63,850 nucleotides of DNA, filler included, from Kipferlia bialata (GCA_003568945.1; 5 parts of 4 records of this genome joined end to end with filler, not necessarily neighbours in it), one strand, 5' to 3'. Positions 96-52,661 are shown, counted from the whole stretch's first letter. A program made the numbers and translations. Notes: generated from the letters alone by a model not told the origin.

Positions 96-896
96 CCTAA
101 GAGGAAGCCCGTGACCACTGCCATGCACTGTCTGTTGAGACCTGTCACATCGGCCCCATACCTCAGTCAACGTATGTGTGTAGTATATACTAGTGTATAT
201 ACTGTATACCGTGTGTATATATATCGTATATACATATATAGGGATCACTGTCTGTTGAGACCTGTCACATCGGCCCCATACCTCAGCCAGTGTACGTATA
301 TATGCTAGTTATATACCATATATCATATATATCCCTCAACATATTGCTTGAGAATACCCTGAGGGGACACCAATACCCACAACATAGTTATTAGTATTGT
401 ATATATATATGAATGTGTGTTTGTATATGTATCCCTCACCCCCAGTGCTGGAGAAGACCCTGAGGGGGGACATGCAGATGACATCTAGGGTAAGTGGACA
501 GTATGTACATATATACATGTATATATATACATATACATATGGTATATATATGTTCTATACTATATACTTAAACTGGATATATATTTATGATATACTTAGG
601 GGGGACATGCAGATGACATCCAGGGTAAGGATGTATATATCCAGATATCATATACATACTATACAGGGCACAATAGCAATATTCACACCACAAATATAAT
701 TATGGCACAAGATCAAGTTGGTGACCTGCAATGACATCTATAAGTGTATAATGGACAGGTAATATGTATTCTACATACATTTGACACACACATACACTCA
801 CACTCTCTAATACACTAACCCTAGATCTCCATCAGTGGAGGTCCCTTCCTGACACCCCCCACGGAGAAGAGTCACCTCGACCTGGCAAAGTAAGTG

Positions 897-931
<35 letters not shown>

Positions 932-1758
932 GATGTATAATGCATGTGTCCCATAATAGAAGAGTCACCTCGACCTGGCCAAGTATGTGCATGTATATAC
1001 AGAGTCAGTGTAGTACTTATACCCTTTCTCTCTCGCTCTACACCACTAATATAGGTTCTACATCAAGAACTGTGTACATGCTATATCTCTCTCCCTCTAC
1101 ACCCTTTCTCTCCCCCCCTACACCCTTTCTCTCCCCCTCTACACCCCTAATCCACAGGTTCTACATCATGAACTGTGTGCATGCTCAGATGATCCACAAG
1201 ATATCGGCCAGTGTCAGATACTCTGCACCCACAGACGCCAACATAGACCCAGCTGAGGTGTGTATATTTACCGGTAGACACAGATTTAGATAGATAGATG
1301 GATAGATGTTATGCCCTCATGTATATATGTATATTATAGTGTATATGTGTATACTATAGTGTATATATATGTATATTATAGTGTATATATGTATATTATA
1401 GTGTCTATATGTAGCATCAGGGCAAGAGGAATGACATGTATGTCCCTTTCAATCCCATAGTCTATACTAATTTCATATATATATATATATATGTGTGTGT
1501 GTATATATATGTTGTAAGGTACTATGACTAATTGTATGTCTTACACCAGGGCAAGCGCAATGACATGTATGTCCCATTCAATGCCACGGTGGCAGGGTTC
1601 ACAATGACACAGAGGGCGGTGAGTATACCACACATATATATATATATAGAAAGAGAGAGAGAGGGGGAGAGAGAGAGAGAGAAAGAGACTATGCCACGGT
1701 GGCAGGGTTCACAATGACACAGAGGGCGGTGAGTGGTATTTTATAGAGCGAGTATATG

Positions 1759-1793
<35 letters not shown>

Positions 1794-4700
1794 CATGCTA
1801 CAATGACACAGAGGGCGGTGACTGATATATAGAGGAGTTATATCTCTTTATAGTGTTGGATACGTTGTTTTGTTCCTCACTCTAGTCTCTGTTCCCCATG
1901 TGCCGCTCTATGGGCTTCCCCATATCCTGTGCTGCCTGGATAGGAGTACTCCACAACACAGTGTCACTGAAGCTCATATTGCCTGAGGTATGTATCTACA
2001 TATATATACTATATATTGCAATATTTTTATATATACTGTGATGCCTGGATAGGTGTACTCCACAACACAGTCAGTCTCAAGCTGATTCTACCTGAGGTGT
2101 GTATATTGATTTATATATACAAGTAGTATATATATATATATATACTCTGTGATGCCTGGATAGGTGTGCTGCACAACACTGTCAGTCTCAAGCTGATCCT
2201 GCCAGAGGTATATACTATATACATGTAGTGTATATATATATATATATATACATATACTATGGGATGCCTGGATAGGTGTACTCCACAATACAGTGTCCCT
2301 GAAGCTGATTCTACCTGAGGTATCCATATTTATTATGTTTTTATACTATATTCATATATTTCAGTCAGTCTGTAGCTGATCCTGCCTGATGTAGGGTATA
2401 TATTGTCACATGTGGGTCTGGAGACATTTTCATATTCATTTATATTGCACATAGACTGGATAACTAATTACATCTTATCCCAGATCATTGAGTCCCCCAT
2501 ATATTTGTATGCGTTGAATATATATATATTGTGTACAATAGATATACTGATGTGTATTCGAATGATTCTCACCCCAGATCAACCGCATCATTGAGTACAT
2601 CATATATATATGTATTTATATATTGATTAACCTCTATATATCCATATACACATGTCTAACCCTCCAGATCAACCACATCATTGAGCCCCTGGCCAGCAAG
2701 AGCCTCGAGTTTGCAGGTACATGGGTACACACATATATATATATATATGTGTGTGTGTACAATATATGTATACATATATGTATATACAGTACCATATGGC
2801 CAGCAAGAGTCACTAATATGCAAGTGCAGACATATTATATATAATCACACACATACATACAGTAACAGATAGTCTCGAGTATGCAGGTGCAGATGTACAT
2901 GTATACACGACATATATATGTATACCCGACATATATATATATAGTATATTTTGAACACATACAGTCTCGAGCATGCAGGTGCTGTATACATGCACATATG
3001 TGTATATGTGTATATTCACACATACATACCTCGAGTATGCAGGTACATGCATATACATGCACATGTCATCACATTCTGCCCTGTATATATATATATACTA
3101 CTTGTATATACTACTCTGTTCTGAGCTTACCCCTTAGGCACCTCCCTGGCCTCTCTCACTCTCTCTCTCTCTCTCTCTATCCTTATGTACCTCATCTTTA
3201 GGCACCTCCCTGGCCTCTCTATGTGAGTACTACAGGGCTGTGATGGCACTCATACCCACAATGACACCCGCTGAGGTATGAGATCTATATATGTATATAC
3301 ATATGGTATATGTTATGTATATACAGAGTATCAATAGTACTGATGGCACTGATACCCACAATGACGCCCGCTGAGGTATGTATCAGTGTATATGTGCATA
3401 TACTCTTGTACATACTCTGTTACTATTGTGATCACTTGTGTATAGATAGATACTCTAGACCCTGTATGCACCTTTTGTTCTCTCTCCATAGCCCTAGTAT
3501 GGCGTTGTATTATACATTATTCATATATCCCTTACCCCCAGTATGATGTTGACTCCTGGCCCAAGTACGTCAGGCAGAACGCAGCGTACTACGGAGTCAT
3601 GAGAGGTATGGGGTTATGAGTGGTTTAACTATATATATGTGTGTGTATGTTCATACCCCACCCCAGGCAAGAGGACTGTGCTCCCCAACACCCACATCCC
3701 CATCGACCCATTCTTCCACCACTGCCCAGGGTATGTGTGTGTACAGTATAGAATCAGTGTGTATACATATCATCCCCGTTGATATATATATATATACATA
3801 CAATATATATGTATATGTACAACCATGTACATGATGGTGTTTATGTATATATAGCCCTATATCTTACCCCCAGCGATGAGTGCACTGCATGGAATCACAT
3901 ACGCCTCGCCTTTGTCTATATGTGTATTCATGAATACACACACCACATATACATATATACATATATATACATTGTCTGACCCCCAGTGACGTGTGCACTG
4001 CATGGAATGAGGTGACCCTCACCAGAGACATCCTGGGGTACAGGTATGCCGTGTATACACACACATATATATATGGTATACATGCATATGTATATGTGTA
4101 TGGATATATCAATATATGAGGTGGCACTCACCAGAGACATCCTGGGGTACAGGTACAGTACTGCATGGATATGTACTCCATATACACATGTTATAGTATA
4201 TTGTGTAAGATATTTGACATCTCCCTCCCTCTCTAACCTCTAGGGCCATAACCGCCTCTACTCATAGTGTACACACATATATATATGGTATACACGCATA
4301 TGTATATGTGTATGGATATATGTGTATTTGAGGTTGCACTCACCAGAGACATACTGGGGTACAGGTATATCCAATACACACACACATACAGCTTGTTTCC
4401 TCTCTCTCTCTCCCTCCCTCCCTCTTACACTCTAGGGCCATCACCGCCTCTGGTCGTGATGCCCGTAAGAACCCAGGCCTCTCCCCCATCCCTGCCTGTC
4501 TGCCCCAGAGACTGGTAGGATGGAGTAGAGACATCAAGAATAGGTATACAGTGTATATATACACTAGAGACAGTATATATATACTATATGTAGTATTTAC
4601 TTTATACTATATATATATATGTATACTATATGCAGTATGTATACTCCATCCCTGCCTGTCTGCCCCAGAGACTGGTGGGGTGGTCTAGGGACATCAAGAA

Positions 4701-5743
4701 CAGGTAGAGAGGCAGTATATACATAAGAGACAGGTTATATATACTATATGTAGTATATACATTATGGTATTTTATATATATATATATACTATATGTAGTA
4801 TGTATACCCCATCCCTGCCTGTCTGCCCCAGAGACTGGTAGGATGGAGTAGGGACATCAAGAATAGGTAGAGAGGCAGTATATACAATATAGACAGCGTA
4901 TATATACTATATGTAGTATTTACATTATGGTATTAGATATATATATATATACTATATATATATATAATATACCCCATCCCTGCCTGTCTGCCCCAGAGAC
5001 TGGTAGGATGGTCTAGGGACATCAAGAACAGGTATATGGTGTAGATGTATGATTTCTTTAATTACTCCTTCTTACCTATGCTGTATAGACTCACTCTAGG
5101 GCCGACGAGATAGCCACCACAGGGGGTATATAGTACAGACAATCCTGTATATTCATATGTATATGTGTATTCATATGTGTATGTGCGTCCCATACTGATA
5201 CCAGGGCTGACAAGATAGCCACCACGGGTGGGATGGATGCCTTTGACCCCAGGGCATACGGCATCAGTGTGTTTGCAGGTATATACAGTGTATAGAGTCT
5301 ATATTGGGATAGTATGATACTCCTGTGTATCTCACTCCTAATACAGCCATCATCCCCCCTTTCCCCCTTATTCCCGGCAACCCCCCCTATCTTCAGATGC
5401 TTGGGTATTCTCTCTCTCTCTCTTTTACCGCTCATTCCAGGCAACCCCCCCTGCCTTCAGAAGCTTGACATGCTGCCTGGGTTTGGGCACCTGGGACCCA
5501 TGTCACTCAGTGTGCTCAAGGTATATACACTGCACATACGGTGCTCTCTCCCTCTCTCCATCGCTATCCCTCATCTCTCTACCCCCCTCTCTCCCTCTCC
5601 CTCTCTCCATCGCTATCCCTCATCTCTCTACCCCCTTGATACCCAGACAGCCACTGGCCCAGGCACTCTGACTGTGAGCCCCATATTGGCAGAGACCAAG
5701 TAAGTATATGTATATATATATATATACATATACTAGTAGTAAG

Positions 5744-5777
<34 letters not shown>

Positions 5778-6035
5778 CTACTCTGTATGTGTATTACTAT
5801 ATACAGTATTGATAGCATAGTTTACTGATAGTGAATATATCAATACACTGACTGTGAGCCCCATACTCGCAGAGACAAAGTGAGTATGATAATGTATATG
5901 TCATCACCTACTATTGTATTGTATTGGAGTGAGTGGTTGCGTGTATATATCATAAGTTGAGAGATAATTGACATATAGTATATATTCTCCTACCTATGCC
6001 CATAGTTCATGGCAGGCCTGGACGTTGAGCCCTTG

Positions 6036-6069
<34 letters not shown>

Positions 6070-6840
6070 CATATGCCCACTAACCTTAGGTTCACTGCTG
6101 CCCTTGATGTAGAGCTGTTGGCCGGTCTAGTCCGACACGGCATAGAGGTGGCATCCATACAGAGGTACTTAATGTCTGTAAATATACTATATGTGTATAT
6201 AGTATATATGCATTATACACTAGATGCTGGCGCATAGTGTATATGGTCTAGTGAGACACGGCATAGAGGTGGCATCCATACAGAGGTAGGGGTTGATATA
6301 TACATATAGTGTGTAGTATATATATATATATATATATATATATACTTGCCATACTATATATATGTAATATATGTGGTCTAGTAGGACGCCTTAGTGTATC
6401 TCCATACATATTAGTATGAATGTACTAGCCGCCTCTGACCCATCAGGATCAAGCACGACCTGTCGTACACCATGTGTTTGTCTGTATAGCCATATATGAT
6501 ATACATATGTATGAGTGTGTGTGTGTGTGTATATGTATATACTACAGTCTCTAACACTCAGGATCAAGCACGACCTGTCTTACACCATGTACCGTATGTA
6601 TGTAACTATACATGATTAATACACATAGTATTAGTACCCATATATATACATATGACTCATATGTATATATCTCTCCTAACCATCAGGATCAAGCACGACC
6701 TGTCGTACACCATGTGTCATATGATATACATATGTATGAGTGTATGTGTGTGTGGAGTCACTATATACTACAGTCTCTCACACCCAGGATCAAGCACGAC
6801 CTGTCGTACACCATACCCCTATGTATATTACTATACATAA

Positions 6841-6885
<45 letters not shown>

Positions 6886-7803
6886 GTTCCTAACACCCAG
6901 GATCAAGCACGACCTGTCGTACATCATACCCCNNNNNNNNNNNNNNNNNNNNNNNNNNNNNNNNNNNNNNNNNNNNNNNNNNNNNNNNNNNNNNNNNNNN
7001 NNNNNNNNNNNNNNNNNNNNNNNNNNNNNNCATACATACATATATATGTTCCTAACACCCAGGATCAAGCACGACCTGTCGTACAGTCTGGGCAAGTTGT
7101 TCACAGAGGTATGATGACGTATATTCTGTATATTATATACTTTATCTATTATTGTATTACCATATAATGTATGTGTTATATATACCATGTACTATTGTAT
7201 ATCAAGCACGACCTGTCGTACAGTCTGGGCAAGATGTTCTCAGAGGTATGGATAGCTATATGCATGTAGATAATCAGTTATGTACAAAGATATTATTTTT
7301 GTATATATATGTGAGTGATTGATCATACCTGGGCAAGATGTTCACAGAGGTATGGATAGCTATATGCATATTTATGTATAATTGTATGTTATTTTTGTAC
7401 ATATGTGAGTGATTTATCATACCTGGGCAGATGTTCTCATGGGTATGGACAGGCATACAGAAATGCTAATAGTGTACATATATAGTGGTTGTGTGTGTAT
7501 TAATTATACTTGGGCAAGAGTGATGAATAGAGTGTAGTATATCTGCCCATATGCTCCTTCTGTGACCTCTCGCTCTATGTATGTATATATGTATGTATCT
7601 ACGTGTTCTGTAGAATATCATTGCATATATCTCACCCTAGGCCGAGATCCTGTCCCGTGCTGTCTCTCTCTCTCTCTCTCTCTCTCTCTACATGTATGTA
7701 TATATATATATAACGTATACCTCACCTCTAGGCCGAGATTCTGTCCCGTGCTGTGGGTCTCATCGGCCTGGCAGTCTCGTGCTTCTGCCTGGAGTTCAAG
7801 TAG
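96..7803 (+). CDS. Hypothetical protein, 5'-truncated, 18 exons visible
   Basis: Manual splicing at GT-AG sites gives one open frame: exons 96-171, 446-489, 825-889, 1158-1257, 1550-1618, 1886-1987, 2668-2716, 3202-3275, 3542-3605, 3667-3730, 3987-4043, 4436-4543, 5205-5278, 5441-5520, 5647-5699, 6090-6164, 7063-7108, 7732-7803 (TAG). Product PKRKPVTTAMHCLLRP...GLAVSCFCLEFK*. All phases are compatible; no family recognised. Confidence 0.8.
2043..2390 (+). repeat. Intronic array of 3'-exon-end plus donor copies of exon 1886-1987
   Basis: Copies at 2043-2096, 2154-2207, 2266-2319 and a degenerate one at 2363-2390, separated by AT microsatellite spacers. Confidence 0.95.
4646..5031 (+). repeat. 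Intronic array of 3'-exon-end plus donor copies of exon 4436-4543
   Basis: Three ~58-nt copies of ccatccctgcctgtctgccccagagactgg...aag aay ag|gt at ~160-nt period. Confidence 0.95.
6441..6925 (+). repeat. Intronic array of acceptor plus 5'-exon-start copies of exon 7063-7108
   Basis: cag|gatcaagcacgacctgtc(g/t)tac with AG ending at 6446, 6561, 6686, 6787 and 6900. Confidence 0.95.
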
Positions 7804-8534
7804 ATAGAGGTATACACACACCTACGCACCCAGAGAGAGTGAGAGAGAGAGAGAGACTGTGAGAGGTGTATGTTTGCACACACACTCTCTATTTGCCACT
7901 TGTGGGGTACATTCACGCCGGTTGACGTGTGTGTATGCCTGTTTACCTCCGATGGTGTAGTTTGGTCTACAGACACACGTAGAGAGAGAGAGAGACAGTT
8001 CGTCTTGGTAGAGGACTGTCAGGCCATCGTACAGACCTATATGGACCTTCTTACGTGTCACAGAGTCTGATGTAATAGAGAATAGACAGATCTCTTTGAC
8101 AGATGGTGTCATATCTGTGGGGGATATAGTAGTACTATATATAAGAGTACTATTAGTACTCTTCCCTATATGTCAAGTCACAATGCGTATTGGTCACCCC
8201 AATTATCATACGATACGTCTATCACATACATCCGTAACATGCTATTAGGTCCCAGTATGACTGTAGACTCTGCAGTGATAGAAGCGTGTCAACCATGACA
8301 CCTTCCTTAGGTCTACAGTGCATCGCACATGAGTCATCTACAACAACTCTCTCTCTCTCTCTTAGTCTACAGTCCTTGACACTCCGAGGTGATATACAGT
8401 GTAGGATAGATACCCTCACCCTTCCACCCCAGGGTGTCCCATGGGTATACAGTAGGCACCCACCTCCCACACTGCTCTCCCCCCATTCTCTCTCAACCCA
8501 TACCACCACTACCCCATCCCTTGTCACAAGAGAT

Positions 8535-9299
8535 ATGGTCAAGCTGGTCGGAGTCTGGAAGTTCCTGAGGTAAAGAATGGAGTAGATAGAGTACAATCTG
8601 TATACTCTAGCACTGGGACCTGCAATCTACTTCACTACTACTATGTATAGCTCTGTAAAGGGAGAGAGAGAGGTATTGCCATAGCCCATAGACTCTGGTT
8701 GGGGAGAGAGAGACTGTCTTGTGGAAAAGAGTAATACAAGTGGCACTACCTCTCTTGTTAGATGCATTCTTCCCTGTCTCTACATAGATACCTGTATCCT
8801 ACGCAATACAGATACATAGTGTGTATGCAAGCTCACGGCTGCCTCTCTTACCCTCTCTCTCTCTCATAACCTCTAAGTACTATAATCTATCTATCTCCCC
8901 TGCCTTTCCTGTCCCTATATATATACTGCCTTTTCTCCACCTCTCAGTTCTCTCTCACCCCAGTCCTGTTGTAACGTATATTACACTTTACTATCACTCT
9001 ATCTACTGTGTATGGATGTGTGCCCCATTCTTCCTCTAGTAGCTATACTCTGTCCCATTCTCTCTCTTTCTCCTACATCCTACATCCATCCTCTTGTCCA
9101 ATCAGCTGTTCGGCTTCTCTCTTCCGTCCTATCCTCTCTCTATCTCTACCCCACCCCATTCTTTCTCCTCACCACCGAGATCCTATGAGGATGGAAGGCC
9201 TTCTATCTCTCTCTCTCTCATGTATATGTACACATATATTCTATATTACATATATGAATCTTCATTCACCTTCCAGGTCCTAAGAGGATGCAATGCGGC

Positions 9300-9345
<46 letters not shown>

Positions 9346-11122
9346 GTACTTTTACTACATCTTAACACCCCAGGTCCTATGAGGATGCAAGGTCTATCAA
9401 TCTCTCTTTCTCTCTATAGTAATTATTAATATGCTCTCTCTCTGTCCCTACACCCTTCTTACTCCCAGGTCTTATGAGGATGCCGGGTCCAAGCAGGACA
9501 GGGACATGGTAGGTAAGGGATTAATGCATTTATATATATATGATACGACATCTGTATAATGGTATGCACGATGGTATGCATACTATATGGGTTTAGAGTC
9601 CAAGCAGGACATCGACATGGTCGGTGAGTAGCCATCACTTCTATATGTACACTTATATCACCTATATATGTCATATATACCCCCTTATATATAAGAATGT
9701 ATACTAAATACTCACTTATATATATGCAGGGTCCAAGCAGGACAGGGACATGGTAGGGGGACAAAGACTGTGTAGTATATATACACTACATGGATGTATA
9801 TATATAATATGAAGCATATACACTATGCATGCTATATATACATTAGTGTTAGATCCAAGCAGGATAGGGACATGGTAGGTAAGGGACTCATAGATGTATA
9901 CTCAATATTACTTAGTACATGGACAACCAGTATATACACTGGTCTCACACCCATACTCTTAGGATAGGAGGGAGGTATATATACCTGTTGGTGTCTGTGG
10001 ATATATCACACAATCTCTACACCTAACCTAGCCCACACTGATATCATGAAGTGAAGACATATATATAACTTTGTGGGTGATAATGAGTACATGTATGTGT
10101 CTTCACTGTGTATACGTCTAACAATACGGAGATCATGAAGTGATAACATATACAAATAAGTGTGTGGGAGAGTGTGTACATATGTGTCTATACTATGTGT
10201 GTATATGTCTCACCCCCTGCATATATAAATACATATATATATATATATACATATACATGTGTGTCTTAACCCCAGCCCACAATGAGATCATGAAGTGCAG
10301 GAAGTGGCTGTCAGACCCAAACGCACCCCCTCATAAGGTATAGTAAAATATACTATAGTATATCCAGTTTGTGAATTCATTGTGTATATTGTGCATGTGA
10401 TTATCAATGTGTTGCTGTCAGACCCAAACGCACCCCCTCACAAGGTGAATACTATATGACACATATAGTATACATGGTATATAATGTGTACATGTGATTA
10501 TAAGTGTGTTGCTGTCAGACCCAAACGTACCCCCTCATAAGGTAGAGTATTGTATACTAGCTACACCAGTATATATAGAATGTATAGTACATGTATATTT
10601 TGTGAATATTGCATATATGTGGTTATTGACATAGTAATTATATATATGTGTGGCTGTCAGATCCCAACGTACCCCCTCACAAGTTATAGTAAATACCCAT
10701 GCATATGAATGTGTGCAGACTAAGTAATACACCTCATGTAACTCTCTCAGAAGTAATTCTGTATGTGTTTGGTGGTCAGAGTCCAATGCACCTCCTCGAA
10801 ATGTATATATATGTATATAGTATGTATGTAGAGTATAAACTTAAGCATATATATGGGTGCATCTAACCACCAGGTCCGTACCAGCATCCTGAAGCTGGTG
10901 GCACTCAGACTCAACGGGTATGTACATGTATGTAGAGTACTATAGAGTATATACTATAAACTATGCTATACACAGTGTGTCTGAAGCTGGTGGCACTCAG
11001 ACTCAACGGGTATGTATATATTAGTATGTAGAGCAGTTCATTGTATATAACAGTAATCCTACATACACATATAGACAGACAGAGAGAGATGGGTGTTGGT
11101 CATCGCGGTATGTTGAACAATG

Positions 11123-11154
<32 letters not shown>

Positions 11155-14100
11155 ACAATGTACCTCTCACCCTAGCTATGACTTTGGGTTTGGCTTCAAC
11201 GCCTGTTGCCAGTTGATAGCATCCAGGACACCCAAGGTACGATACTGTATATACAATATATATAGTATATATTGTATACTATGTACAGAATACGGAGCAT
11301 ATACTGCATAACTATCGTATACCCCAGTAATGGGTGCTTGTATTGACAACATCGAAGACACCCGCTCTCTCTATCTGTATACATATGTATATGACAACTG
11401 TGTATTTGGTATAACTCCATCTCACGCTAGTGCAAGGCCATAGGGTATCTGGCCACTGCCTGTCTGCTCCCCACCACATCCAGCCCAGTCATCATGCTGA
11501 CCAATACACTCATGGAGGACTTGACAGCATAGACATATTATATGTGTTTATATGTATATATATATTGTATATATAGTATATATATCCAGCCCAGTCATCA
11601 TGCTGACCAATACACTCATGGAGGATCTCACTGCTTCTAACGGAATGATATACTATATATGTATTTGTGTATAGGTAGGTATAGTGTGGATATAGTGTAT
11701 ATATACGTATATATATATAGTATATACATCCAGCGCAGTCATCATGCTAACGAATACATTGATGGAATACTTGACAGCGTCTAATGGTATATACTATGTA
11801 CTATACTACAGTGCGAACAATGACCTGTTGGAATATATATATGAATATATATATATATACCTATAAATTGTATAAATACATCCAGCCCAGTCATCATGCT
11901 GACCAACACGTTGATGGAGGTGGTCTTTAGAATATTTAGTGTGTACTCTCATGCAGTCATATCATCTAACCCCCAGCCACCTACCTGTCCTACTGGCGCA
12001 GAAGTGCCGCACTCAACATGATGTGCAGCATGACATCGGGTATGTTTAACACACACATATACATACATATGGCGGGTATGCTTATTAATATATATGCTTG
12101 CTATAAATGGTCGATACTCTATATGCACTCAACATGATGTAGAGTATGACGTCGGGTATGGATGTACAGACGTATACACCTACATAGATATATGTAGATA
12201 CATATTTATACATATACATTGAGATATTCCCTCTTGGATAGTATAGTATACTTAGATAGTGTGTACTGCGTACATAAACTCCACTATATATATATATAGC
12301 ACAAGGTGTTTATACCTCCTCACCCGCAGGCCTTGACATCCTGAGTGACACCGTTGTCAACATCTTCATGGACAAGCAGGAGGAGACACAAGTCAGGGTC
12401 AAGGTACTCTAAATGCCAATACTCATACGCATATACTCGTACGCTGCACTCCATTGTGACATACTCCTTCTCTCACCCCTAGGCCGCCCTTGTTCTGGTC
12501 AGGGGTGTCAGAGAGGGTGTGGTGTCAGTTGATGGACAGGAGTGGCCAGGAAAGCTGCCGGGTACTATAGTATTCATGTATATGCTGTACTACGTACTAG
12601 ATCGATATACTGGAGATGGCAATATCAGGTATTCTGGCAAATGTATGTATATGTATATATGTATAATGCTATGTGGATGGATAGGAGTGGCCAGGCACGC
12701 TGCCAGGTATGCACACACGATCTTATGGTTGTACTGGAACCCTCTTGATCCTAGGCGTTATCCTGTCTGCCTTCCTCCCCCTGCACATGATGCCTCATAT
12801 GATTATATGCATATATACAAATACTTATACATATACATGTATATAAATGTATACTCACTATCAGGCGATATCCTGTCTGCCTTCCTCCCCCTGCACATGA
12901 TGCCCTCTGTCACACACACACACATACATATATATCCCAGTGGAGTACACATACATGTACATTCATATATTTATGTTCTCAATATCAGGCGTTATTCTGT
13001 CGTCCTTCCTCCCCCTGCACATGATGCCCTCTGAGCTGGAGAGGAACTGGCCAGTGGCTAGGTATAGGCTATACATACATATCCTTATACAGCAGACATA
13101 TATACTCCTTACAGAGTTTGAATCAATACTCTAGGTACATCATACCCTCTGCGCAGGAGAGGAACTGGTGGTTGCATTGTCTTACTCCAGAACTGCCCTG
13201 TGTCTAGCCCACGTGTGTGAGGAGAGACAGCCTGGCAGTGTCCCTGGACTGGGGGTGGCAGTGGTGCATCTACTGAGGTACATACACACTACTCGATGTA
13301 TATCAAAACTACGCGGTCCTCACCACTTAGGGCAATTCATGTGAACAAGAGGTTCACCCTGTCCTACTTTATGCACAACGTGCTGGACCCTTTTATGCAG
13401 ATTAGGGCACTGAGGTGACACTCTAAATACTACACGATAATACTATGCTACCAACCTACGCGGTTTGTGTGTGTCTCTAAGTGCAGGATCCTGTGTCTGC
13501 CTGGCATAGGGGATAGTCTACAGGCCAATGTGCTGAGGGACCTGGCTGAAGTGATGGACATGGTACGAATGCATACTATATACTAGTAACGTACACCGTA
13601 TAGTGTTTACTATACTGTATATATACATGTATATATGTATATGAATGTATATATATCTAGGCCAATATGCGGACCTGGTAGAAGAGAAGGACATGGTGAG
13701 TGAGTGTATGTATGTACTTACATATTACATATACATTTAGTATTTCATCTTACTCTAGGTCCTCAACTCCAAGAGGCAGACTGTGAGACACCCCGTGAAT
13801 GTCAGTACATATATATATATATATAGAGAGAGAGAGGGAGAGAGTATATATACATAGTATTTCATCTTATTTCATCATATTATATCTTACTTTAGGTCCT
13901 CAACTCCAAGAGACAGACTGTGAGACACCCCGTGAATGTCATTATATATATGTGTATATAGTTATAGTTATATATCAGTAGTATATAGTATATATAACTA
14001 ATATACCTACTTTCAGGTCCTCAACTCCAAGAGGCAGACTGTGAGACACATGTACATATCAGTCTATATATATGTATATTAATAAATATGTAAATATATC

Positions 14101-35900: not shown

Positions 35901-37930
35901 ATACACCTCAGGTGGGATGTGTCCAATCTCGTAGTAGCCATCGGCATCTGAGACAGTTAGGGCTAGGGTAGGATCTCCCACAGAGACAACGACGTTACTC
36001 ACTGGGCCCTGGGTGCTCTGATCGATAGTGAATCCTGCCAAGACACTGACACATCCAATGTCGAGACATATCTGGTTCTCACCACATCTCAGGAAGAGCT
36101 CCTCCTCGAACTCCTCTCCATCGAGAGTGAATCTAGCTGTGACTGTGGTTACTGGCTCTATAGACAGACACTCAGCAGGGAGGGACGGCACCGTCTCAGT
36201 GCTGCCTAGGAACTGACCCTCCTCACTGTAGTACTCAACGAGTACACCCCCTATGTAGGTGGGGTTACTAGATGTGCAGTCGGGGCTGAGGGAGACACAC
36301 ACCTCCTGCCTGCCGCAGGGTAGCTCGACCTGTAGTGGCACCTGCCCGCAGCACGGGAATGTGAAGGGACCCAGCTCTGCGCCAACACCAGGTGCGGATA
36401 TAATCACCACATAGTCCTCATACCCAACTGCGCCTAGACTGTCGAACAAGACCTGTCCAGTCTCGTCTGTCACTAGGGTCTGACCAGTGCCAGGGTCAGC
36501 TAGCAGTTGCCACCGTACGTCTGCACCCTCTACAGGGCCTGGGAAGGGGTCACTGTAGGTCACAGAGACCAGTAGGCTGAGGGTGTCCGTACACTCTACA
36601 GTGATGGGGACAGGTGTGTTAGTGACCTCCCAGATCAGACACTCCTCCCCAGCGGCGTATCCATTGGACTCATCCCAGGAGAGCATGACCTCATCACCTG
36701 GAGTGTTAGTGAGGGATGTCTTATCTAGAGAATACAGTGTGGATGTAGCGAGTGATGCTGTATTGTACCTTCTGCAAGACACCCAAAGCATGCGACACCC
36801 GTAGAGTTTGTGGGTCTGTGCACACTGAACCGCATATCAAAGGCATCCAGTACCAGACCACACATGTCAGACACGACAGTACACATAGAAGGACAGTCGT
36901 CACAACCCCCTCCACCCCCACCACAGCACATCTCAACATCTACAGTTATAGGGTCACAGTCAGGCACTACTAGCTCTACAGTGGTAGGCTGACATGTAGT
37001 GTTGGGACCAGGAAAGAGAGAGAGGATGTGGGGGCCTGGGGGTACACCAGATAGGGTGTAGTGACCGTTACTATCGGTGACAGCAATTGGTACAATGGCA
37101 GTGATCTCCACAATGACACCCTCTAGTGGGGTGCCAAGTGTATCTGTCACGGTACCCTCCACCTCTGCAGTGCAAGGGACGCAGAACAGTTCAACATCTA
37201 CAGTGTACGTCTCACACTCTGGCACATGTACCTCTCTCGTAGTGCTCTGGCAGGTAGAGCCAGGTGGAGGGGTATAGGTAAGGGTGTGAGTGCCGAGGGG
37301 GATGTCTGAGAAGGAGTACTGTCCCTGACTATCTGTCTCTGTAGAGGGTACTCCAGGTGCGTCAATGTCAACAGTCACTCCCTCTAGTGGGTTGCCGAGG
37401 GTGTCTGTGACTGTACCCTCCACCTCTGCCGTGCATGTGCCACCACATAGCTCCTCTAGACCCTCAAACTGAAAGGACTCAGTGCCCCAACTGGGTGTGA
37501 GGAGGCGATATCGATGTGCAAACACACTGAGTTATAGTATATATACCAGCATTACCCAACGCACTAACCCTGTCTTGACCATGACTATGGCATCAACAAT
37601 GTACTAATACACACATATACACGAATACGTGCATCAGCGTGAATCGATCGGTACATACTCTATACATATATATACACATATGAGTATACACACTCACCCT
37701 GTCTTGACCATGACTATCACATCATCGAGGGATGTCAGGGTGAAGTCGATGAACACAGTCTCAAACCCGGTCTGGGATCAGCTTGTGTAGGGAGGCTAGT
37801 GCAGTGCACTACAGACTAGTGCTACACGTGTGGGTATAGAGAGCGACTTGCACTGTACCGACCTCAAAGTCTAATATGCACAGTCTCAACATATATATCA
37901 AACATATACACGCTCCGAAATGCATCTGTG

Positions 37931-37971
<41 letters not shown>

Positions 37972-39118
37972 CTATGTACCCACCTCAAAGTCCGATATGC
38001 AGCCTGGTATGTCAGACTCCAGCTTGAACCCTTCGTCAAAGGCCTCCCTGTCAATGTCACGAAGGTACCGCCTTGGTTAAGAGAGACATACTCAAATACA
38101 TATTATTCTATATATGTAGTCTGTCATTGTACGTGATATATTCATCAATGTCAGGCCTGCCTGTCAATGTCACGCAGATAGCGCCTGATGTTAGACACAC
38201 ACATACATATACACGACATATACTAGAAGTGCTGAACTACTCACACTGAGTATCTCACCTATCTGAGCTGTTGCCCCTGATAGGGTTGTTGTCTGCACAT
38301 GCATACCCATTCCCAATGATGGGGTCTACAGTGACAAGGGTCAGGTGAGACAGACCACACCGGTTTTCCTTCTTACCCAGGGAGAGCTCCATCTCAACTG
38401 TGTACACACCCTGGGAGTGAGGTTGTTGATATGTCACACACTAAATGACAATATGTCATACTATACAATATATTACATATACTATATAAAGAGTGCACAT
38501 ACCTCATTATCGGGTCCATTGATGCACAGAGCAGCGTTGTAGTTACACGATGACCCAGTGATGCCATCTACCAGTGTCTCAAAGGGGGTGAGGCACATGC
38601 ACACTCCTGTTTGGAAGGGGGTAGGGATGTTAGTAGTGTCTGTGTCCCATATGGATGCCTCATAGTACTGGAAGCCTATAGGAGTAAGACATCGTACTGT
38701 GGTTTAGGGGAACGTATATAATACCGTTCAACAGAGAACACTGAAATGAGACGTCAACTGTAGTGGAAGGGTGAAAGGGAGCGTTTGACACTCCCACTCT
38801 ACAGGACGCTTAGCAACTGTAAAGAGGTCTATGTTCAGTATGATATGGGTCACTCAGAATGGGTGAGAGGTTTATCATCTCAATCTCTATAGTGCTATAG
38901 TGAGAAGCAACATACTCAATGCACGGATAGCAATGGTGAGTGTATATTTCGGCATGGAGTATATATAGATCAAGAGGGTAAAGACATCAGACATGAACAC
39001 AGCATGCTCCAGGCCTGACCTACCCCCCACCTTCACCAGTTGTCCTGACAGTGTCTGTGGGTATGCCACGACTGGCTGCTATCAAAGCCAAGAGCAGCAG
39101 AAGTAGTAGACTCTGCAT
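32960..39118 (-). CDS. Secreted protein with about 10 carboxypeptidase-regulatory-like (transthyretin/Cna-B fold) repeats and 3 copies of an unrecognised Cys-rich domain
   Basis: ATG 39118 gives signal peptide MQSLLLLLLLALIAASRG. Repeats resemble VEGTVTDTLGNPLEGVTV...TDSQGQYSF. ORFs 36725-37525 and 35292-36791 join via intron 36725-36768. The last exon ends VDVGLSAA* (stop 32960-32962). Confidence 0.75.
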
Positions 39119-39466
39119 CTCGAGAGAGAAGAGGCAGATGTTGTCCGTTGGTTGGTACAGAGACCCGTCAACAGCAGCATCTCTATACAGCTGCTGCATT
39201 CAACAGTATTATTCATCAGTAAGATACCCGCAAATCCACAGAGACAATCCCTTCCGCAGGGTAGTAGAGGTCACGCCTTCGTGGCTAGTACGGAGACTGC
39301 CAAAATCACATATACACGTCGTTGCTATAATGAGGTACAAAACTCAAGAAGTACTGACTCCAAGCTATCGTCAAAACAATAGAAAAAGGGTCCAGGCATG
39401 AAGCAACAAATCAAATTGAATCAGCAACCACACTGATTCAAGAATCGTCCTCTCCAGACCACTAGG

Positions 39467-40149
39467 ATGCACCCCCTGCATATCCTATGTGGGTGTGTGG
39501 TGCTGTGCTGTGTCGGGGTGGTGTTAGGTCTTGGGTGTCCACAGGGAGGTATGGATGGGGTATATATAAAGTACATGGAACCCACTATATACTATATGTA
39601 GCGGTAACTGGTTCTGCAAGACTTGCACATATACAATAGGTATCTTCTCCCCTGTTGCATATACCTGTGCAAGAGTTGGTAATTCTTCCAGTCTCCCCTG
39701 TCTCTCTCTCTCTCTCTCCCCTCACATTGTAGTATTATACACCTCTCTTCACACCTGACATTCACTCTCTCTCTATATATATGCGCGTCTTCTCATTTTA
39801 CTACTTCCTTGTTTTTCTACCCCCGAGCTGAGCCAGACCCCTGTGACACTGGGTACTCTCTCTCTCTCTTAAATAGTAAATATTATAGACCTTTACATTT
39901 ATTGTCTTGTGTGTTACTGTACCTACCCTCCAGGTGAACCCGACCCCTCTGACATTGGGGCTGTCATGATCATGTCCACTAAGGTATCAACCCTCTCTCT
40001 CTCTGTTTCTGTTGTATACGAGAAGTTACTATATATATATGGATATGCCGTCTCTTATTACTTATTGCCAGGGCTTCAATAAGGCCATGGATGGAGAGAT
40101 ACCCAACCTGGAGGAACAGGCCACGTACCTGGTGCTCGAGTACGCATGT

Positions 40150-40223
<74 letters not shown>

Positions 40224-43200
40224 CCCAACCTGGAGGAACAGGTCACGTACCTGGTGCTAGAGTGAGTGCAGATATATATGTGTATTGTGTAATATATATA
40301 GAGACATGTAGATACCGATACCCAACCTGGAGAAACAGGCCACGTACCTGGTGCTAGAGTGAGTACAATCGTATCTGCATATGTATATATATACACCAAT
40401 TCATATTTGTGTATATATTCATATCTCTCTCTCTCTCGCCACATAAATTCTCACATATCCATACACTAGTAAATAGTATTCTCACCCTCCAGTGATAGTC
40501 CTGGGTGTAGCCATAGTGGACTCTCTCTCTCTCTCTTTATATATATATACATATGATCTAACTCTCCAGTGACATTGACACCGAGCAAGACCTAGGCATA
40601 TCTATAGTGGATCTGTCCATATCAGACATAGTTACACATAGTTACACATTCCTATATGCCTAAATACTTATCTCTCTCTCTCTTTGTTACTCCGTCAAGT
40701 GGCGTATATCCTCTCACCCTCCAGTGATATTGACACTGAACTTGATCTGGGCGTGGCTGTGGTGGACCTGTCCATCTCAGACATGCACATCACTAACTTC
40801 CACATAGAGTCCATAGAAGGTGGTCTACTTCTATGGCAGTTTCACATAGACTCTAGCTTCACTTTATACCCATATCTCCCCTCCCTCATTAACTGTAGTA
40901 ATCCCCTTCTTCTGTGTGTATTATACGTGCCTCTCTCCTCACCCCCAGCCATCACCATCCCAGAGTCACAGGAACTGGAACTGGACCTGTACGTGACATG
41001 ATGGTATATACTTGTATAGATTGGTACTGATACCAATCACCCTCTCATTTCCTCATAGTTACTCAAATCTGAGTGATGACACCGATGTCAACATATACTC
41101 GGCTGACAACTCTATAGAGAGTCTCTATTAGAGACCGTATCAACACTGATATATAGCCCTATGCACTCCCCCTCCCTCACCCCCAGGGGTGACACAGATG
41201 TCAACATGACCTTTGACTGGAGCTACACAGACACGTCCTGGCCGTACGTGCTCTGTCTCTCAGCTGCTCCCACTCTTATATATACACACCACTTCGAACA
41301 ATCTCTCCTAGAGCTTACACCTCTCTCTCTCTCTCTCCCTCCCTCATCTCTAGTTTCCCCAGTGACTCTGGCACAGGCACTGCCTCCTGTGCGGGTATCA
41401 ACGGGGGGTTCACATACCACCCCATCTACGATCACACATGCGGTATTCCACAGGTGCTTAGACAGCATATACATATATTTCTAATACATATCACATAGAT
41501 ACTGTTGGTGTCTCTTATGACAGGTTGTAAACGACGAATTCAACCTCGACTTCGGGAACATTAAGATCACACTGGATGGTATGGTGCATGTGTATATCCC
41601 TGTAATACTCGAATACTTGACCCATCATCTCCCCCTATCTCTCCCCCCTCCTAATATTTACTGCTAGACGGGGCCTCTGCCTTCTTCCAGACTCATCTCT
41701 TTCTCTCTCTCTCTCCCCCCCTGTCTCCTTCTGTTAACTATCAGGCGGGGCCTCTGCCTTCTTCCAGACCATCCTGAATGTGTTCATTGGACTGGTAGAG
41801 GACCTCTTCACAGACCAGCTCAACCAAGTCATAGAGGAGAGCATGACAGAAGGTACTTCGTTACACTAATGTATATAGAACTATACTAGCACACACAGAT
41901 ATATCCAAGTCATAGAGGAGAGCATGACAGAAGGTACTGTATATCTCTCCCTGCACAATATTTGTATCCCCCCCCCTTCTATGTTTTGAGTTACCACATA
42001 TGTCCTTCTCACCCCTAGCCATGAACAGGAACCACCTATATCTAGCAATTCACAATGATATATTGTAAATAGATCATCTAATAGTAATTGGCTATCCCTT
42101 TCACCCGACCTACCCCTAGCCATGAACAGGAACAGTCTCCCACCTCTCTCTCTCTCTCTCAATACATATATATATTCATATATACATCTATATGTTAGCA
42201 GTGATGTCCCTCCTGACCCCTAGCCATGAACAGGAACCTTGTTGGCAGTCTCTTCAACACAGACCTGACAGATGGCATGATGGAGGTATGAATATGTAGG
42301 GTGTAGATATATTTGCACTAGAGTAAATATATTGATTTACAAGAGTCTATATATTGTGGTGTATTTGTACTATAGTATGATAACCCAGACCTGTTGGCAT
42401 GATGGAGGTAACGCATCTCTTTCTTTCTCTCTCTCTATATATATGTAATGTTAGTGTATACCTATACTACTGTACTTATACCGGGACATGCGCTACTCCG
42501 ACCAACATAGCATCTCTTTCTTTCTCTCTCTCTATATATACACCCTTAGGTATAATACTTAATCCTAGGACATGCGCTACCCTGACCCTGCCCTGGTCGT
42601 TGAGGACAGCTACATAGCAGCACACTTCACAGGATACGTACGTTCATGTATCCTTGTCTCTCTCTCTCTCACTGCTTAAGCGACTAGTGTTTATGGCTCT
42701 CCAGCAGGAACCATCCATGAGTCTCTCATGTATATAGCACTGTCTCACACCCAGGTGTACCCGATAGACGAGGGCGTTCTGTATCCAGGTACACCGAAGT
42801 ATCTATCAACATATATTCATATACCAATAGGATGTGCCTCACACACCATCCCTCTGCCTAGGGTTTCCAGTGTCAATCTCTGTCTCTCTCACAATATCCC
42901 TATACTCTTAATACCAGCCCGTGAGGCCATCATGCCATCTCCCCTGCCCAACCTAGTTACCAGTGAGGACCTGCAGTTCGTGTTCTCAAACACGTACGGA
43001 TAGATTGAATACACCACTTGTTACACACATAGATGTATATGTATATTGAATGTAGTATTACAGTCTTCTAGCTCCAGTGTGTGAGGCTCTCTCTCCATAT
43101 ATGAATGTATGTGGTATATTCTCCTTCTCTCTTACCCACAGTGTGTTTGAGTCTCTGTATCTGTCCGGCCTGCACCTTGACCTCTTGCACGGGGAGGTAG

Positions 43201-45372
43201 ACCCTAAGGAGGTATGATATGTATATTGATTAGTGTATATGTGTATGTGAGTATATATATCAGCATATACCTGTCCGGCCTGCACCTTGACCGGGACATA
43301 GACCCTAAGGAGGTAATGAGATCTTATACAAGACATATATTTATCTCTGTCTCTCTCTCTCTGTCGCTCGCTCTCTCTCTGTATTACCCAATAGGTCCAG
43401 AACCCCCAGCTGGCCTCCCTTCTGAACACATCCACCCTGGGGAGTATATGTCCAGGTATGTATATACTATTATCTTTGTATATATAGGGCTAGTGTTAGG
43501 GATGTGGTATATCTGGATAGTCTATGTCAATATTCTTACGAAACATGATCTCTGTTTTTCTACTTATGCAATATGTGTGTGTGCGCCGGAGTGTCACAAC
43601 AATCTTACTTTCAGGACTCTTTGAGGCCTATCCCAATGCCCCAATATCACTGAGCCTCGAGACGTCAATAGTGTGAGGGCTAAATCAATGCTGTCATTTA
43701 GCACTCTTCTCTCACTATGTATCTGACTTGAGGCCCACGGTCACTGTTATGTCCAGTAATCTCTCTCTCTCTCTACACCCTTAATGTCAGGCCCACTGTC
43801 ACTGTTATGCCAAGTGCCGTGTTCACAAACGTCACAGGTACATCATATCATTCACGTACACTTACATGTGTGTATCGTGTCTCTGCATCGTGACATTTAA
43901 CACTAGTGTACAGACACACACATTTAAACATCTATATATATTCATATCTACACTTGCCACATGCACTGTGCACGATGATGCCGTACCGATGATATATACT
44001 AATATATGTATATATAAATATATATGTGTGTGTATTCATATCCTGACCACTCACCACAGGCACCGTTCACGTGTCTGTGCATGATGAAGCCTCTGATACC
44101 ATACATATACATATATATATCTATAGTCATGTACACACTACCCACAGGCACTGTCCATGTGTCTGTGCATGATGATGCCTCCGATGCCTATCTCGATGCA
44201 TTCACAGTGGGGTACAGTGCTGGGATGGCAGGGGTCCCACAGACGGAGACAGTATGTGCGTGGATGTATACTACTATACTACTATACAGATACATTGATG
44301 TATATATATGTGTACATGTATGTGGNNNNNNNNNNNNNNNNNNNNNNNNNTGATGTATATATATGTGTACATGTATGTGGCAGGGGTACCCCAGACAGAG
44401 ACAGTGTGTGCGTATGTGTTGTATATATACATACATGATTGATGACTATATCTACAGTATGGCCTGTTTATTCTCTTGCACTAGGCAGCCCTGCTCATTG
44501 CTCCATCTGCACCTCATCAGTCAGTGTATGATAGTATATGTATATAGTATGCAGTATGTTTTGTGATTCTGACACTGATACCTAGATAGTCCAGCCCACG
44601 GATCCAACTACACCTCCCTGTGGCTCTCCTACACCCCTTTCAATGTTACAGGGTGGAGTATAGACAGTGAGTATGGCCCAGTGGATATGGAGGGACCGGC
44701 GGCAATGCAGCTGGAGGTATAAGTGTATATACATCAAGTCCCATATACACAGATATTGGTATATATAGTTATTTTCTTTATATATGCATGGACCAGCGGC
44801 AATGCAGCTGGAGCTATCTCTCTCTCTCCCTCTCTATCTCTCTCTCTCTGCACCCTTATCCTCAGATGTACCTCTCTGTGTTTGCTGTATGTCCCTGGCT
44901 GACAGAGTGGACATATGACCACGCACCGTACTTTGGACTGGCCGGGGTGCGTCACATACTCTCTGTGTATAGAGATAGAAAACTGTCTTTGTCCATTATC
45001 ACAGATAAATCGAGTGGGTATACACAATATTGTAATGGATTTATATTAACTTCTCACCCCAGGACTACTATGACTGGGGTAGCATGTATCCTCTCCTCGA
45101 GGTATATCAATGTATTATATCAATATGGTATATGAAAAGACTAGCAGCATGTATCCTCTCCTCGAGGTATGGGGGGATGATATGGCATGTTCACAACTTG
45201 TGAATCACAAGACATATATATAGCCGGAGTGATTTCGTTTCTGGAGTGTCTGGTATTGGCTATGGCTACCACCCACACTCTTATTGCCATTTGGGCTTCT
45301 ATACCACTCACCCAGGCCCCTGGGACTATTGTCTACAACGTACCAATGTTCGATGATGTGGTCACTCGGTGA
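39467..45372 (+). CDS. BPI/LBP/CETP (TULIP) family lipid-binding secreted protein
   Basis: Signal peptide MHPLHILCGCVVLCCVGVVLG, then GAVMIMSTKGFNKA...ISDMHITNFHI...FDWSYTDTSWP...IKITLDGGASAFFQTILNVF...LQFVFSNTVFESL...LGSICPGLFEAYPNAPISL, which fits the two-lobe BPI pattern. Stop TGA 45370-45372. Confidence 0.8.
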
Positions 45373-46686: not shown

Positions 46687-46722
<36 letters not shown>

Positions 46723-49030: not shown

Positions 49031-49246
49031 ATTCAAAGACATGTATTGAGGGCTAGGCCAAGAGAGATATGGCAGAGAGGTTGATGACGGGTGTTTAACA
49101 ACTAGTTGTGTGTGCTATTGATATAGTGTGTAGTGTTGTACTTTTATGTAGCGAATAGACGGTGTGAGAACCCAGACCTACTGTCATATATGCACACAAG
49201 TACAAATCTACACTGAGCCTGATTATCTGACTATCTATTATCTTAA

Positions 49247-52538: not shown

Positions 52539-52617
52539 TACGTGGGGATGGATGCAGTCATTCACTAGTATTACAGAATAGCCTGTTCACGCTACTCCCT
52601 CCCTCTCTCTCTCAATC

Positions 52618-52661
<44 letters not shown>

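What the first reader, a model, noticed from the sequence alone, without database searches (positions are those of the whole stretch)
96..45170. Exon-edge 'echoes': intronic partial exon copies that are synonymously recoded
Seen: introns of most genes here contain 20-65 nt copies of only the edge of the adjacent exon plus its splice site, separated by AT/TC microsatellite spacers. In gene 96-7803, 16 of 18 exons have at least one echo (about 40 by eye). Echoes also occur in the adaptin, SAC3, Kelch-like, surface-protein and BPI genes and at 58854-62901. Differences from the live exon are strongly biased to synonymous changes, including multi-base swaps (TCA/AGT, AGT/TCT, CGC/AGG, TTG/CTC). Established: a neutral intronic duplicate should accumulate more non-synonymous than synonymous changes, and a half-exon with one splice site cannot be a normal alternative exon. 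Inference: each echo has been, or still is, used as coding sequence. Possible routes are recombination or conversion that swaps exon edges in and out of the array, capture of edges from very divergent alleles, or repeat-guided DNA/RNA joining. I do not know of a described system like this.
Basis: partly seen in the sequence, partly recalled or inferred. Interest (0 to 1): 0.93.

Follow-up and report, generated by a model that had tools for sequence, protein, structure and literature searches.

The report
Relics of other alleles inside introns
In the marine protist Kipferlia bialata, many introns hold half-copies of the neighbouring exon with one splice site, differing from it mostly by silent changes; they are likely dead leftovers of DNA repair or crossing-over between very different alleles, which would make one genome an archive of its population's past alleles.

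Summary
The window is Kipferlia bialata DNA. In nine gene models (142 introns) I find 123 exon-edge copies against about 3 expected. Polarity is strict: 3' edges lie downstream, 5' edges upstream, none on the wrong side. dN/dS against the live exon is 0.18 (one echo per edge: 0.13-0.26), and echoes differ from each other mostly synonymously too. Neutral duplication and single-lineage conversion do not reproduce this. The intron flanks beside each echo are nearly unalignable to the live flank, yet keep AG/GT and a branch motif, so each piece diverged while working. The amino-acid changes look like unselected decay (AT-biased, 7.6% stops), which argues against present use. Best reading (0.6): pieces of strongly diverged alleles, left by out-of-register repair or crossing-over, then decaying. 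It works like amphioxus 'mirage' repeats but differs in scale and in this coding signature. Echoes are regional (60 of 90 introns versus 3 of 52). One adaptin exon has its missing 3' end only in echoes; in a reportedly diploid strain this may be a null allele. No read-level or second-isolate test was obtained.

The parts
96..7803 (+). Gene 1 (KIPB_001828, hypothetical, 5' partial): 18 exons, 36 scored echoes in 14 of 17 introns
1886..2319 (+). Gene 1 exon 6 (1886-1987) with three 3' echoes (2031-2096, 2142-2207, 2260-2319) carrying 6-11 synonymous and 2 non-synonymous codon changes each; they also differ from one another synonymously
4044..4451 (+). Gene 1 intron 11: two tandem units of spacer + 3' half of exon 11 + GT...AG intron + start of exon 12. 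Spacer and echo parts are about 93% alike, the two enclosed intron versions are very different
4436..5031 (+). Gene 1 exon 12 (4436-4543) with three 3' echoes (4646-4703, 4807-4866, 4972-5031) in a 163-nt tandem array, the most mirage-like array
6447..7349 (+). Gene 1 exon 17 (7063-7108) with five 5' echoes (an N gap lies in the array) and two 3' echoes, one nearly whole but without an acceptor
8535..22728 (+). Adaptin alpha-like gene (weak Pfam Adaptin_N and Alpha_adaptinC2 hits): 39 exons, 51 echoes in 25 of 38 introns; NCBI model KIPB_001830 covers only the part from exon 7 on
11431..11920 (+). Adaptin exon 6: the acceptor-bearing copy has no GT/GC donor in the needed phase and runs into a stop at 11530-11532; the missing end exists only in echo 1 (11584-11642, GA at the donor place) and echo 2 (11726-11786, GT donor, two amino-acid changes); echo 3 is 11878-11920
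   Evidence: annotation starts a new gene in exon 7
14430..14470 (+). 5' echo of adaptin exon 15: 10 synonymous and 1 non-synonymous codon change
16847..16908 (+). 3' echo of adaptin exon 21: 10 synonymous and 0 non-synonymous codon changes
18113..18891 (+). Adaptin exon 25 (18610-18683) with five different 5' echoes and two 3' echoes; more versions than two haplotypes could supply
23138..27830 (+). KIPB_001831 (hypothetical, 5' partial; no Pfam hit): 12 exons, 10 echoes
28837..29111 (+). Two upstream copies of the start of a Kelch-like exon at 29065; gene model not clean, left out of counts
37569..38184 (-). Three echoes in a repeat-rich surface-protein-like gene
39934..45372 (+). BPI/LBP-like gene (paralog KIPB_005082, named lipid-binding serum glycoprotein by UniRef): 21 modelled exons, 17 echoes
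45985..63166 (+). Echo-poor contigs: four modelled + strand genes, echoes in 3 of 52 introns (59550-59718, 62203-62219, 62791-62962)

Best explanation
The echoes are half-exons with one splice site and their own intron flank, and they are likely non-functional relics of strongly diverged alleles of the same gene, left beside the live exon by out-of-register repair or crossing-over and now decaying. Shown: layout, polarity, synonymous excess, kept splice signals in diverged flanks, decay-like amino-acid changes. Inferred steps: (1) alleles differ at roughly 20% of silent sites and their AT/CT-repeat-rich introns barely align, so exons are the main homology; (2) a broken end, held at the exon, primes synthesis out of register on the homologous chromosome, giving a tandem duplication whose two copies come from different alleles; (3) duplications holding a whole exon with both sites are purged, half-exons survive in the intron; (4) unequal crossing-over in the exon-derived part then grows arrays and refreshes them from live alleles; (5) each echo decays neutrally, about 4-5% per site at the time seen; (6) splicing ignores echo sites, likely because AT-rich spacer lies on both sides of them.
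For: Synonymous excess: dN/dS 0.18, P 3e-10 against 'neutral echo plus silently evolving exon' with kappa 4; single-echo edges alone 0.17, n=57; bootstrap with one echo per edge 0.18, 95% 0.13-0.26. Echo-echo ratio 0.29; variants private to one echo 43 synonymous and 37 non-synonymous, against 25% synonymous sites. Two-component signature: synonymous changes are GC/AT-symmetric (67 v 64), non-synonymous ones AT-biased (16 v 39, P 0.006), 6 of 79 are stops (4.1% expected by chance), BLOSUM -0.47 v -0.50 for random changes, and pS does not track pN (rho -0.02). Flanks: 30-nt identity 0.65-0.66 v 0.58-0.59 for random introns, 3 of 109 reach 0.9, and echoes identical in the coding part mostly have unlike flanks. 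Bases -3 to -5 match the live acceptor in 53-57% while AG matches in 94-98%; branch motif in 94% of echo flanks, 93% of live, 59% of shuffled. Gene 1 intron 11 holds two different whole versions of one intron in tandem. Single-lineage conversion or turnover gave ratios 0.71-1.33 and pS <=0.15 in 11 of 12 parameter sets (the twelfth left no detectable echo). Context from papers: the strain is reported diploid from k-mer peaks (PMC5874029 section 11); fornicates lack NHEJ and Rad51A and have two Dmc1 (PMC8516963 section 8), and K. bialata has Spo11 and PolQ (its supplement); Dmc1 stabilises mismatched joints (PMC6719624 abstract); in a fungus with synonymous diversity 0.13-0.20 crossovers favour exons (PMC4576712 and PMC4209137 abstracts).
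Against: No second allele or isolate was seen: two metagenome scans found no relative, and each of four proteins is alone in its 90% cluster. The published assembly matches the k-mer genome size with one main coverage peak, which suggests the sequenced strain is not this heterozygous now. The needed silent diversity (about 0.2) equals the highest on record in the abstract I read. Synonymous counts are less overdispersed (1.32) than random coalescent depths would suggest. Refreshing from the splice-site end predicts more decay at the far end, and pN is flat along the echo (far ends are trimmed by alignment). XPF, ERCC1 and Msh2/3 are present, so failure to clip tails is not explained by gene loss. 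The joining step itself is inferred, not shown. Adaptin exon 6 needs an extra assumption (a null allele in a diploid).
Confidence: 0.6

Rival explanations
1. Echoes are kept by selection as DNA-level back-up templates. Breaks in the repeat-rich intron are often repaired by annealing or conversion between echo and live exon, so an echo that no longer encodes the right residues is costly.
For: Five echoes of 29-38 nt are identical to the live exon while their flanks differ (2.3 expected), which shows or suggests recent exchange. Splice sites and branch motifs are kept. No NHEJ in metamonads. No 5' and 3' echo pair overlaps by more than 10 nt (0 of 22, 3.4 expected under one null), as if overlapping pairs collapse.
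Against: Non-synonymous changes look unfiltered and near-Poisson across echoes (dispersion 1.19), not a live class plus a dead class. By inference, exchange frequent enough to be selected also homogenises silent sites unless diversity is already very high, which leads back to the allele model. My simulation did not model selection on echo carriers in a population.
Confidence: 0.17
2. Echoes are used in RNA: transcripts are joined between live exon and echo at their shared sequence by a non-canonical reaction, so echoes are expressed part of the time.
For: Adaptin exon 6 has no usable donor in its acceptor-bearing copy, the missing residues and the right phase lie only in echoes, and the other 38 exons are intact. 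K. bialata has a reduced spliceosome and no snRNA candidates were found (PMC6679479 passages).
Against: Only 1 of 151 exons is like this. A seamless GT-AG intron between copies is possible for 8 of 110 echoes, 16.6 expected; cut ends have no excess GT or AG (23 of 54 v 40%; 18 of 69 v 28%). Echoes carry stops. NCBI models follow the live copies. A diploid can carry a null allele.
Confidence: 0.07
3. The donor was not a standing allele but a sister lineage or a lost recent paralog: one or a few hybridisation or duplication episodes supplied the diverged copies.
For: pS is fairly even among echoes. Echo density is regional. Some BPI echoes show conservative amino-acid changes, and that family has a paralog.
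Against: Up to five different versions sit at one edge and differ synonymously from each other, needing many donors. No close paralog was found for three genes (short queries, limited sensitivity).
Confidence: 0.08
4. Assembly artefact: the short-read assembler stitched haplotypes or strains together at microsatellites.
For: Short-read assembly of a diploid, non-cloned as far as the methods say (PMC5874029 section 4); an N gap lies in one array; an amphioxus mirage was once misassembled (PMC3087553 passage). Copy number and order could be wrong in places.
Against: Each echo has a spacer-to-mid-exon junction that no ordinary haplotype contains, and a de Bruijn contig can only use k-mers in the reads (established). 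Up to six versions of one edge exceed two haplotypes. Echoes carry stops, indels and broken sites that a live haplotype would not.
Confidence: 0.05
5. Ordinary neutral mirage repeats: tandem duplications from the same chromosome, with the silent bias coming from change in the live exon.
For: Same layout as mirages; a few arrays have alike spacers, e.g. 163-nt period at 88%.
Against: Predicts dN/dS of at least about 0.5, echo-echo about 1, and co-duplicated flanks; found 0.18, 0.29 and 3 of 109 flanks at 0.9 or more.
Confidence: 0.03

Closest known systems
Amphioxus 'mirage' minisatellites (Adh3, globins BflGb6 and BflGb9, troponin C, PGBD5). Seen: passages of PMC3087553 and PMC3902484; the original paper PMC117041 is not held
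   Same: Head-to-tail copies of an exon-intron boundary, 5' or 3', next to the real one; many keep AG/GT; units up to about 160 bp; reported not to disturb splicing; unequal crossing-over suggested.
   Different: Mirage units are 81-100% alike along the whole unit with concerted evolution. Here the exon part is conserved and the intron part nearly randomised, differences are synonymous-biased, most edges have one copy (57 of 77), echo units make up 55% of intron DNA in five genes, and the host is a metamonad protist.
Exon-biased crossing-over in hyperdiverse Schizophyllum commune (PMC4209137, PMC4576712; abstracts)
   Same: Alleles so different that recombination falls in conserved exons; silent diversity of the size needed here.
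   Different: Those abstracts report crossover placement, not half-exon relics; diversity was measured there and is only inferred here.
Tandem exon duplication with mutually exclusive splicing (recalled, e.g. Dscam)
   Same: Adjacent exon copies with low dN/dS.
   Different: Those are whole exons with both splice sites; echoes cover about 41-50% of the exon and have one site.
Silent cassettes for segmental gene conversion (recalled: trypanosome VSG, Borrelia vlsE, chicken immunoglobulin pseudogenes)
   Same: Partial, unexpressed copies near an expressed gene that can exchange sequence with it.
   Different: Cassettes diversify the protein in special loci; echoes keep the protein sequence and occur in housekeeping-type genes.
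Intron gain by tandem duplication of an AG|GT site (Rogers model, as cited in PMC3087553 passage)
   Same: Internal duplications that touch splice signals.
   Different: No excess of seamless AG|GT sites (8 of 110, 16.6 expected); no new intron is made.

Membership tests
Mirage minisatellite | Repeat unit spans an exon-intron boundary and duplicates a splice site | tested here: met
   123 of 129 hits edge-anchored; GT in 60 of 69, AG in 48 of 54
Mirage minisatellite | Direct, head-to-tail copies next to the authentic boundary, at 5' or 3' edges | tested here: met
   0 wrong-side hits, spacer median 76 nt
Mirage minisatellite | Units alike along their whole length (81-100% in BflGb6), minisatellite-type homogenisation | tested here: not met
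   Flank identity 0.65 v 0.58 null; 3 of 109 at 0.9 or more; 57 of 77 edges single-copy. A few arrays do fit
Mirage minisatellite | Copy number varies between haplotypes or somatically | not testable with these tools
   No second haplotype or isolate found; no read-level view obtained
Mirage minisatellite | mRNA uses only the authentic sites | tested here: inconclusive
   NCBI gene models follow the live copies but are predictions; no RNA reads examined; adaptin exon 6 is unresolved
Mutually exclusive tandem exons | Whole exon copies with acceptor and donor | tested here: not met
   Median coverage 41% (5') and 50% (3') of the exon; of two near-whole hits one lacks the acceptor and the other the donor
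Silent gene-conversion cassettes | Donor copies supply amino-acid diversity | tested here: not met
   dN/dS 0.18; amino-acid changes look like decay
Silent gene-conversion cassettes | Directed transfer from cassette to expressed locus | not testable with these tools
   Needs clonal time series or deep long reads
Intron gain by AG|GT tandem duplication | Proto-splice site allowing seamless removal of one unit | tested here: not met
   8 of 110 v 16.6 expected

The most novel reading that the evidence does not exclude
Echoes are a working back-up system: Kipferlia keeps recoded half-exons under selection and uses them, by homology-guided joining in DNA or RNA, to rebuild exon ends, as at adaptin exon 6 where the end of the exon survives only in echoes.
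Probability: 0.2. Interest if true: 0.93.

Novelty: new variant of a known kind. Interest (0 to 1): 0.74.

Why it matters
If the best reading holds, more than half the intron DNA of these genes is debris from recombination between very different alleles. That gives a new route by which introns grow and turn over, and lets allelic diversity and past outcrossing be read from one genome of a protist whose sex life is unknown. It ties a visible genome pattern to the odd repair kit of fornicates (no NHEJ, no Rad51A, two Dmc1). It poses a direct splicing question: how a reduced spliceosome skips up to five intact acceptors with branch points. It also suggests testing amphioxus and sea-urchin mirages for the same silent bias. 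If echoes are used, it would be a new way to build exons.

Tried and rejected
Whole genome: none held, so all counts are for this window. Sequencing runs: one DNA holder (X1, 0.93 of words), which may be the source sample and is not counted as support; no RNA holder listed. No reads or contigs were laid, so expression and array structure stay open. Metagenome scans with two proteins found no relative (55 and 224 pattern matches, none confirmed). PDB sequence searches for adaptin exon 6 and KIPB_001830 found nothing, so the need for the three missing residues could not be checked against homologs. The atlas search for gene 1 did not complete. No tRNA found. Rejected ideas: echoes as remains of an older two-exon layout with a lost intron (no GT or AG excess at cut ends); seamless canonical splicing between copies; single-lineage conversion; missing flap nuclease (XPF and ERCC1 present); a GC donor or other phase for adaptin exon 6 (read by hand, each gives a stop or a large deletion). 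'Split and replace' (old exon cut in two around a new copy): 5' and 3' echoes meet within 4 nt in 9 of 22 exons, but this was noticed after the fact and P runs from 0.001 to 0.10 by null (0.001 to 0.30 at 6 nt), so it is only suggestive. Literature: searches listed no paper describing these copies in Kipferlia or a synonymous bias in mirages; the library lacks most subscription papers, PMC117041 was not held, and supplements of PMC5874029 and PMC3087553 were not opened and may bear on this.
Full report
Source and gene models. Three exon queries each returned one protein, identical over the exon and named Kipferlia bialata KIPB_001831, KIPB_001830 and KIPB_001828. K. bialata is a free-living fornicate. 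The window is several contigs joined by N-linkers, and no whole genome is held. I built nine gene models by hand and by mapping those proteins. All 151 exons give open frames and all 142 introns are GT-AG except one donor, adaptin exon 6. A Kelch-like gene whose model has stops, a minus-strand gene near 49-50 kb and the genes at about 29.3-36.7 kb were not modelled or counted.

The observation. Exon-only queries against the two adjacent introns gave 129 local hits at score 26 or more. Exons of other genes pass this in 0.95% of 2840 trials and non-adjacent exons of the same gene in 0.8% of 2874. 123 hits touch an exon edge: 69 are 3' edges downstream of their exon and 54 are 5' edges upstream, with none on the wrong side. 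GT is kept in 60 of 69 and AG in 48 of 54, though the queries held no intron bases. Gene 1 has 36 echoes at 15 of 18 exons, and a sixteenth is seen by BLAST. Echo-bearing introns are 39 of 55, 21 of 35 and 3 of 52 in contig 1, contig 2 and contigs 3-5. In the five genes of the first two contigs, echo-plus-spacer units fill 55% of intron DNA, and the core left over (median 111 nt) is near the size of an echo-free intron (91 nt).

The silent bias. Against the live exon dS is 0.35 and dN 0.062 (1349 codons), a ratio of 0.18, or 0.12 in a fixed 18 nt next to the splice site. Synonymous changes are 60% of differences. A neutral copy predicts 24-29%, and a neutral copy beside an exon that changes only silently predicts 39-45% (P 3e-10 or less). 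BPI alone does not reject that second null (P 0.07-0.36). Copies in an array are not independent, so I recounted on the 110 echoes scoring 30 or more: unique variants per edge give 0.20, the 57 single-echo edges 0.17, and a bootstrap of one echo per edge 0.18 (0.13-0.26). Echo against echo gives 0.29, where two neutral copies should give about 1. A simulation of mutation, turnover and conversion among copies in one lineage, rejecting only events that harm the live copy, gave 0.71-1.33 in the 11 of 12 settings that left detectable echoes. It does not model selection on carriers in a population.

Two layers of difference. Synonymous differences are balanced between GC and AT (67 and 64), as between two coding sequences. 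Non-synonymous ones are AT-biased (39 against 16; P 0.006), include stops in 6 of 79 cases, and score like random changes in BLOSUM62. An echo's pS does not track its pN. Non-synonymous counts are close to Poisson across echoes. Splice dinucleotides are broken in 15 of 123, about the same per-base rate as pN. I read this as silent divergence inherited at birth plus unselected decay afterwards (inference).

The intron side says the same. The 30 nt beside an echo's splice site are 0.65-0.66 identical to the live flank, against 0.58-0.59 for random introns. Only 3 of 109 reach 0.9, and echoes identical in the coding part mostly have unlike flanks. Right next to the acceptor, positions -3 to -5 match in 53-57% while AG matches in 94-98%, and a branch motif is present in 94% of echo flanks, 93% of live and 59% of shuffled ones. 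So these intron ends diverged while they worked. Gene 1 intron 11 holds two tandem units, each with the end of exon 11, a whole GT-AG intron and the start of exon 12; the spacers are about 93% alike and the two introns very different. That looks like two allelic versions of one intron side by side.

Mechanism. Most likely (0.6), alleles differ by about 20% at silent sites and have barely alignable introns. A broken end primes out of register on the homolog and leaves a duplication whose copies come from different alleles. Whole-exon copies are purged, halves persist, and unequal crossing-over in the exon-derived part builds arrays; 38 of 62 copy pairs within arrays end within 2 nt of each other. 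These steps are inferred. Support from papers: the strain is reported diploid from two k-mer peaks (PMC5874029, section 11; I also read sections 4 and 12 and passages, and saw no mention of such copies). Metamonads lack NHEJ, and fornicates lack Rad51A and have two Dmc1 (PMC8516963, section 8); K. bialata has Spo11, PolQ, Msh2, Msh3, XPF and ERCC1 (rows of its supplement). Dmc1 stabilises mismatched joints (PMC6719624, abstract). In Schizophyllum commune silent diversity is 0.13-0.20 and crossovers favour exons (PMC4576712, PMC4209137, abstracts).

Against it. No other allele was seen. The published assembly equals the k-mer genome size with one main coverage peak, so the strain may not be this heterozygous now; inbreeding or loss of heterozygosity must then be assumed. 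pS is more even among echoes than random allele depths suggest, and decay shows no gradient along the echo. The flap nuclease is present. That 5' and 3' echoes of one exon often meet near its middle (9 of 22 within 4 nt, none overlapping by more than 10) hints at an old exon split around a new copy, but the test is post hoc and depends on the null (P 0.001-0.10).

The odd case. In adaptin exon 6 the copy with the acceptor has no donor in the phase that exon 7 needs and runs into a stop at 11530-11532. The missing end lies only in echo 1 (silent changes, GA in place of GT) and echo 2 (GT, two amino-acid changes). The NCBI model starts a new gene in exon 7, and the other 38 exons are intact. This is 1 of 151 exons. 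A null allele in a diploid or a local assembly error is simpler than joining in RNA, and canonical splicing between copies is not enriched. It is still the best single place to test use. No reads were laid, so it stays open.

Known systems. Earlier scan notes (unchecked AI notes) pointed to amphioxus mirages, which I then read in passages of PMC3087553 and PMC3902484. Mirages are tandem copies of an exon-intron boundary, 5' or 3', that keep splice signals, vary in copy number and are reported not to disturb splicing; units are 81-100% alike. The echoes work like mirages in layout. They fail the whole-unit likeness test, so I do not file them as members. The silent bias, the functional divergence of flanks and the scale are not in the passages or listings I saw; the original mirage paper was not held and two papers' supplements were not opened. 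Mutually exclusive exons, conversion cassettes (both recalled) and AG|GT intron gain each fail a defining test.

Verdict. A real and strong pattern, a new variant of a known kind, interest 0.74. The echoes were once working exon edges; that they are relics of diverged alleles is likely, and that they still work has a probability of about 0.2.

Noticed in passing
window 11431-12039: Adaptin exon 6 lacks a usable donor in its acceptor-bearing copy; the public annotation splits the gene here.
   Followed up: partly
window 13331-13414: An in-frame 84-nt adaptin exon with canonical sites is skipped by the NCBI model KIPB_001830; the same model treats the 5' echo at 19843-19863 as a small exon, so echoes can mislead annotation.
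   Followed up: partly
window 1-45812 versus 45913-63850: Two kinds of region: echo-rich, AT-repeat-rich contigs with long introns, and GC-richer contigs with short introns, almost no echoes and long poly-C runs at contig ends.
   Followed up: partly
window 22857-22956, 45813-45912, 52676-52775, 60245-60344: Contigs are joined by N44 + 12-base linker + N44; the first two contigs are both 22,856 bases long, so they may be neighbours only by length order.
   Followed up: no
window 32960-38700 (- strand): A cluster of related repeat-rich surface-protein-like coding stretches with internal domain repeats (self-BLAST 60-70%); only the last gene was partly modelled.
   Followed up: no
window 28837-29600 and 31400-32400: Kelch-like coding fragments; the first has in-frame stops after an AG repeat in my model and may be a pseudogene.
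   Followed up: no
window 45772-45812: A stretch at the contig end that looks by eye like part of a tRNA gene on the - strand; ARAGORN found no tRNA in the window.
   Followed up: partly
introns across the window: Branch-point-like motifs sit very close to the AG, usually followed by a short C run; donors vary widely after GT.
   Followed up: partly
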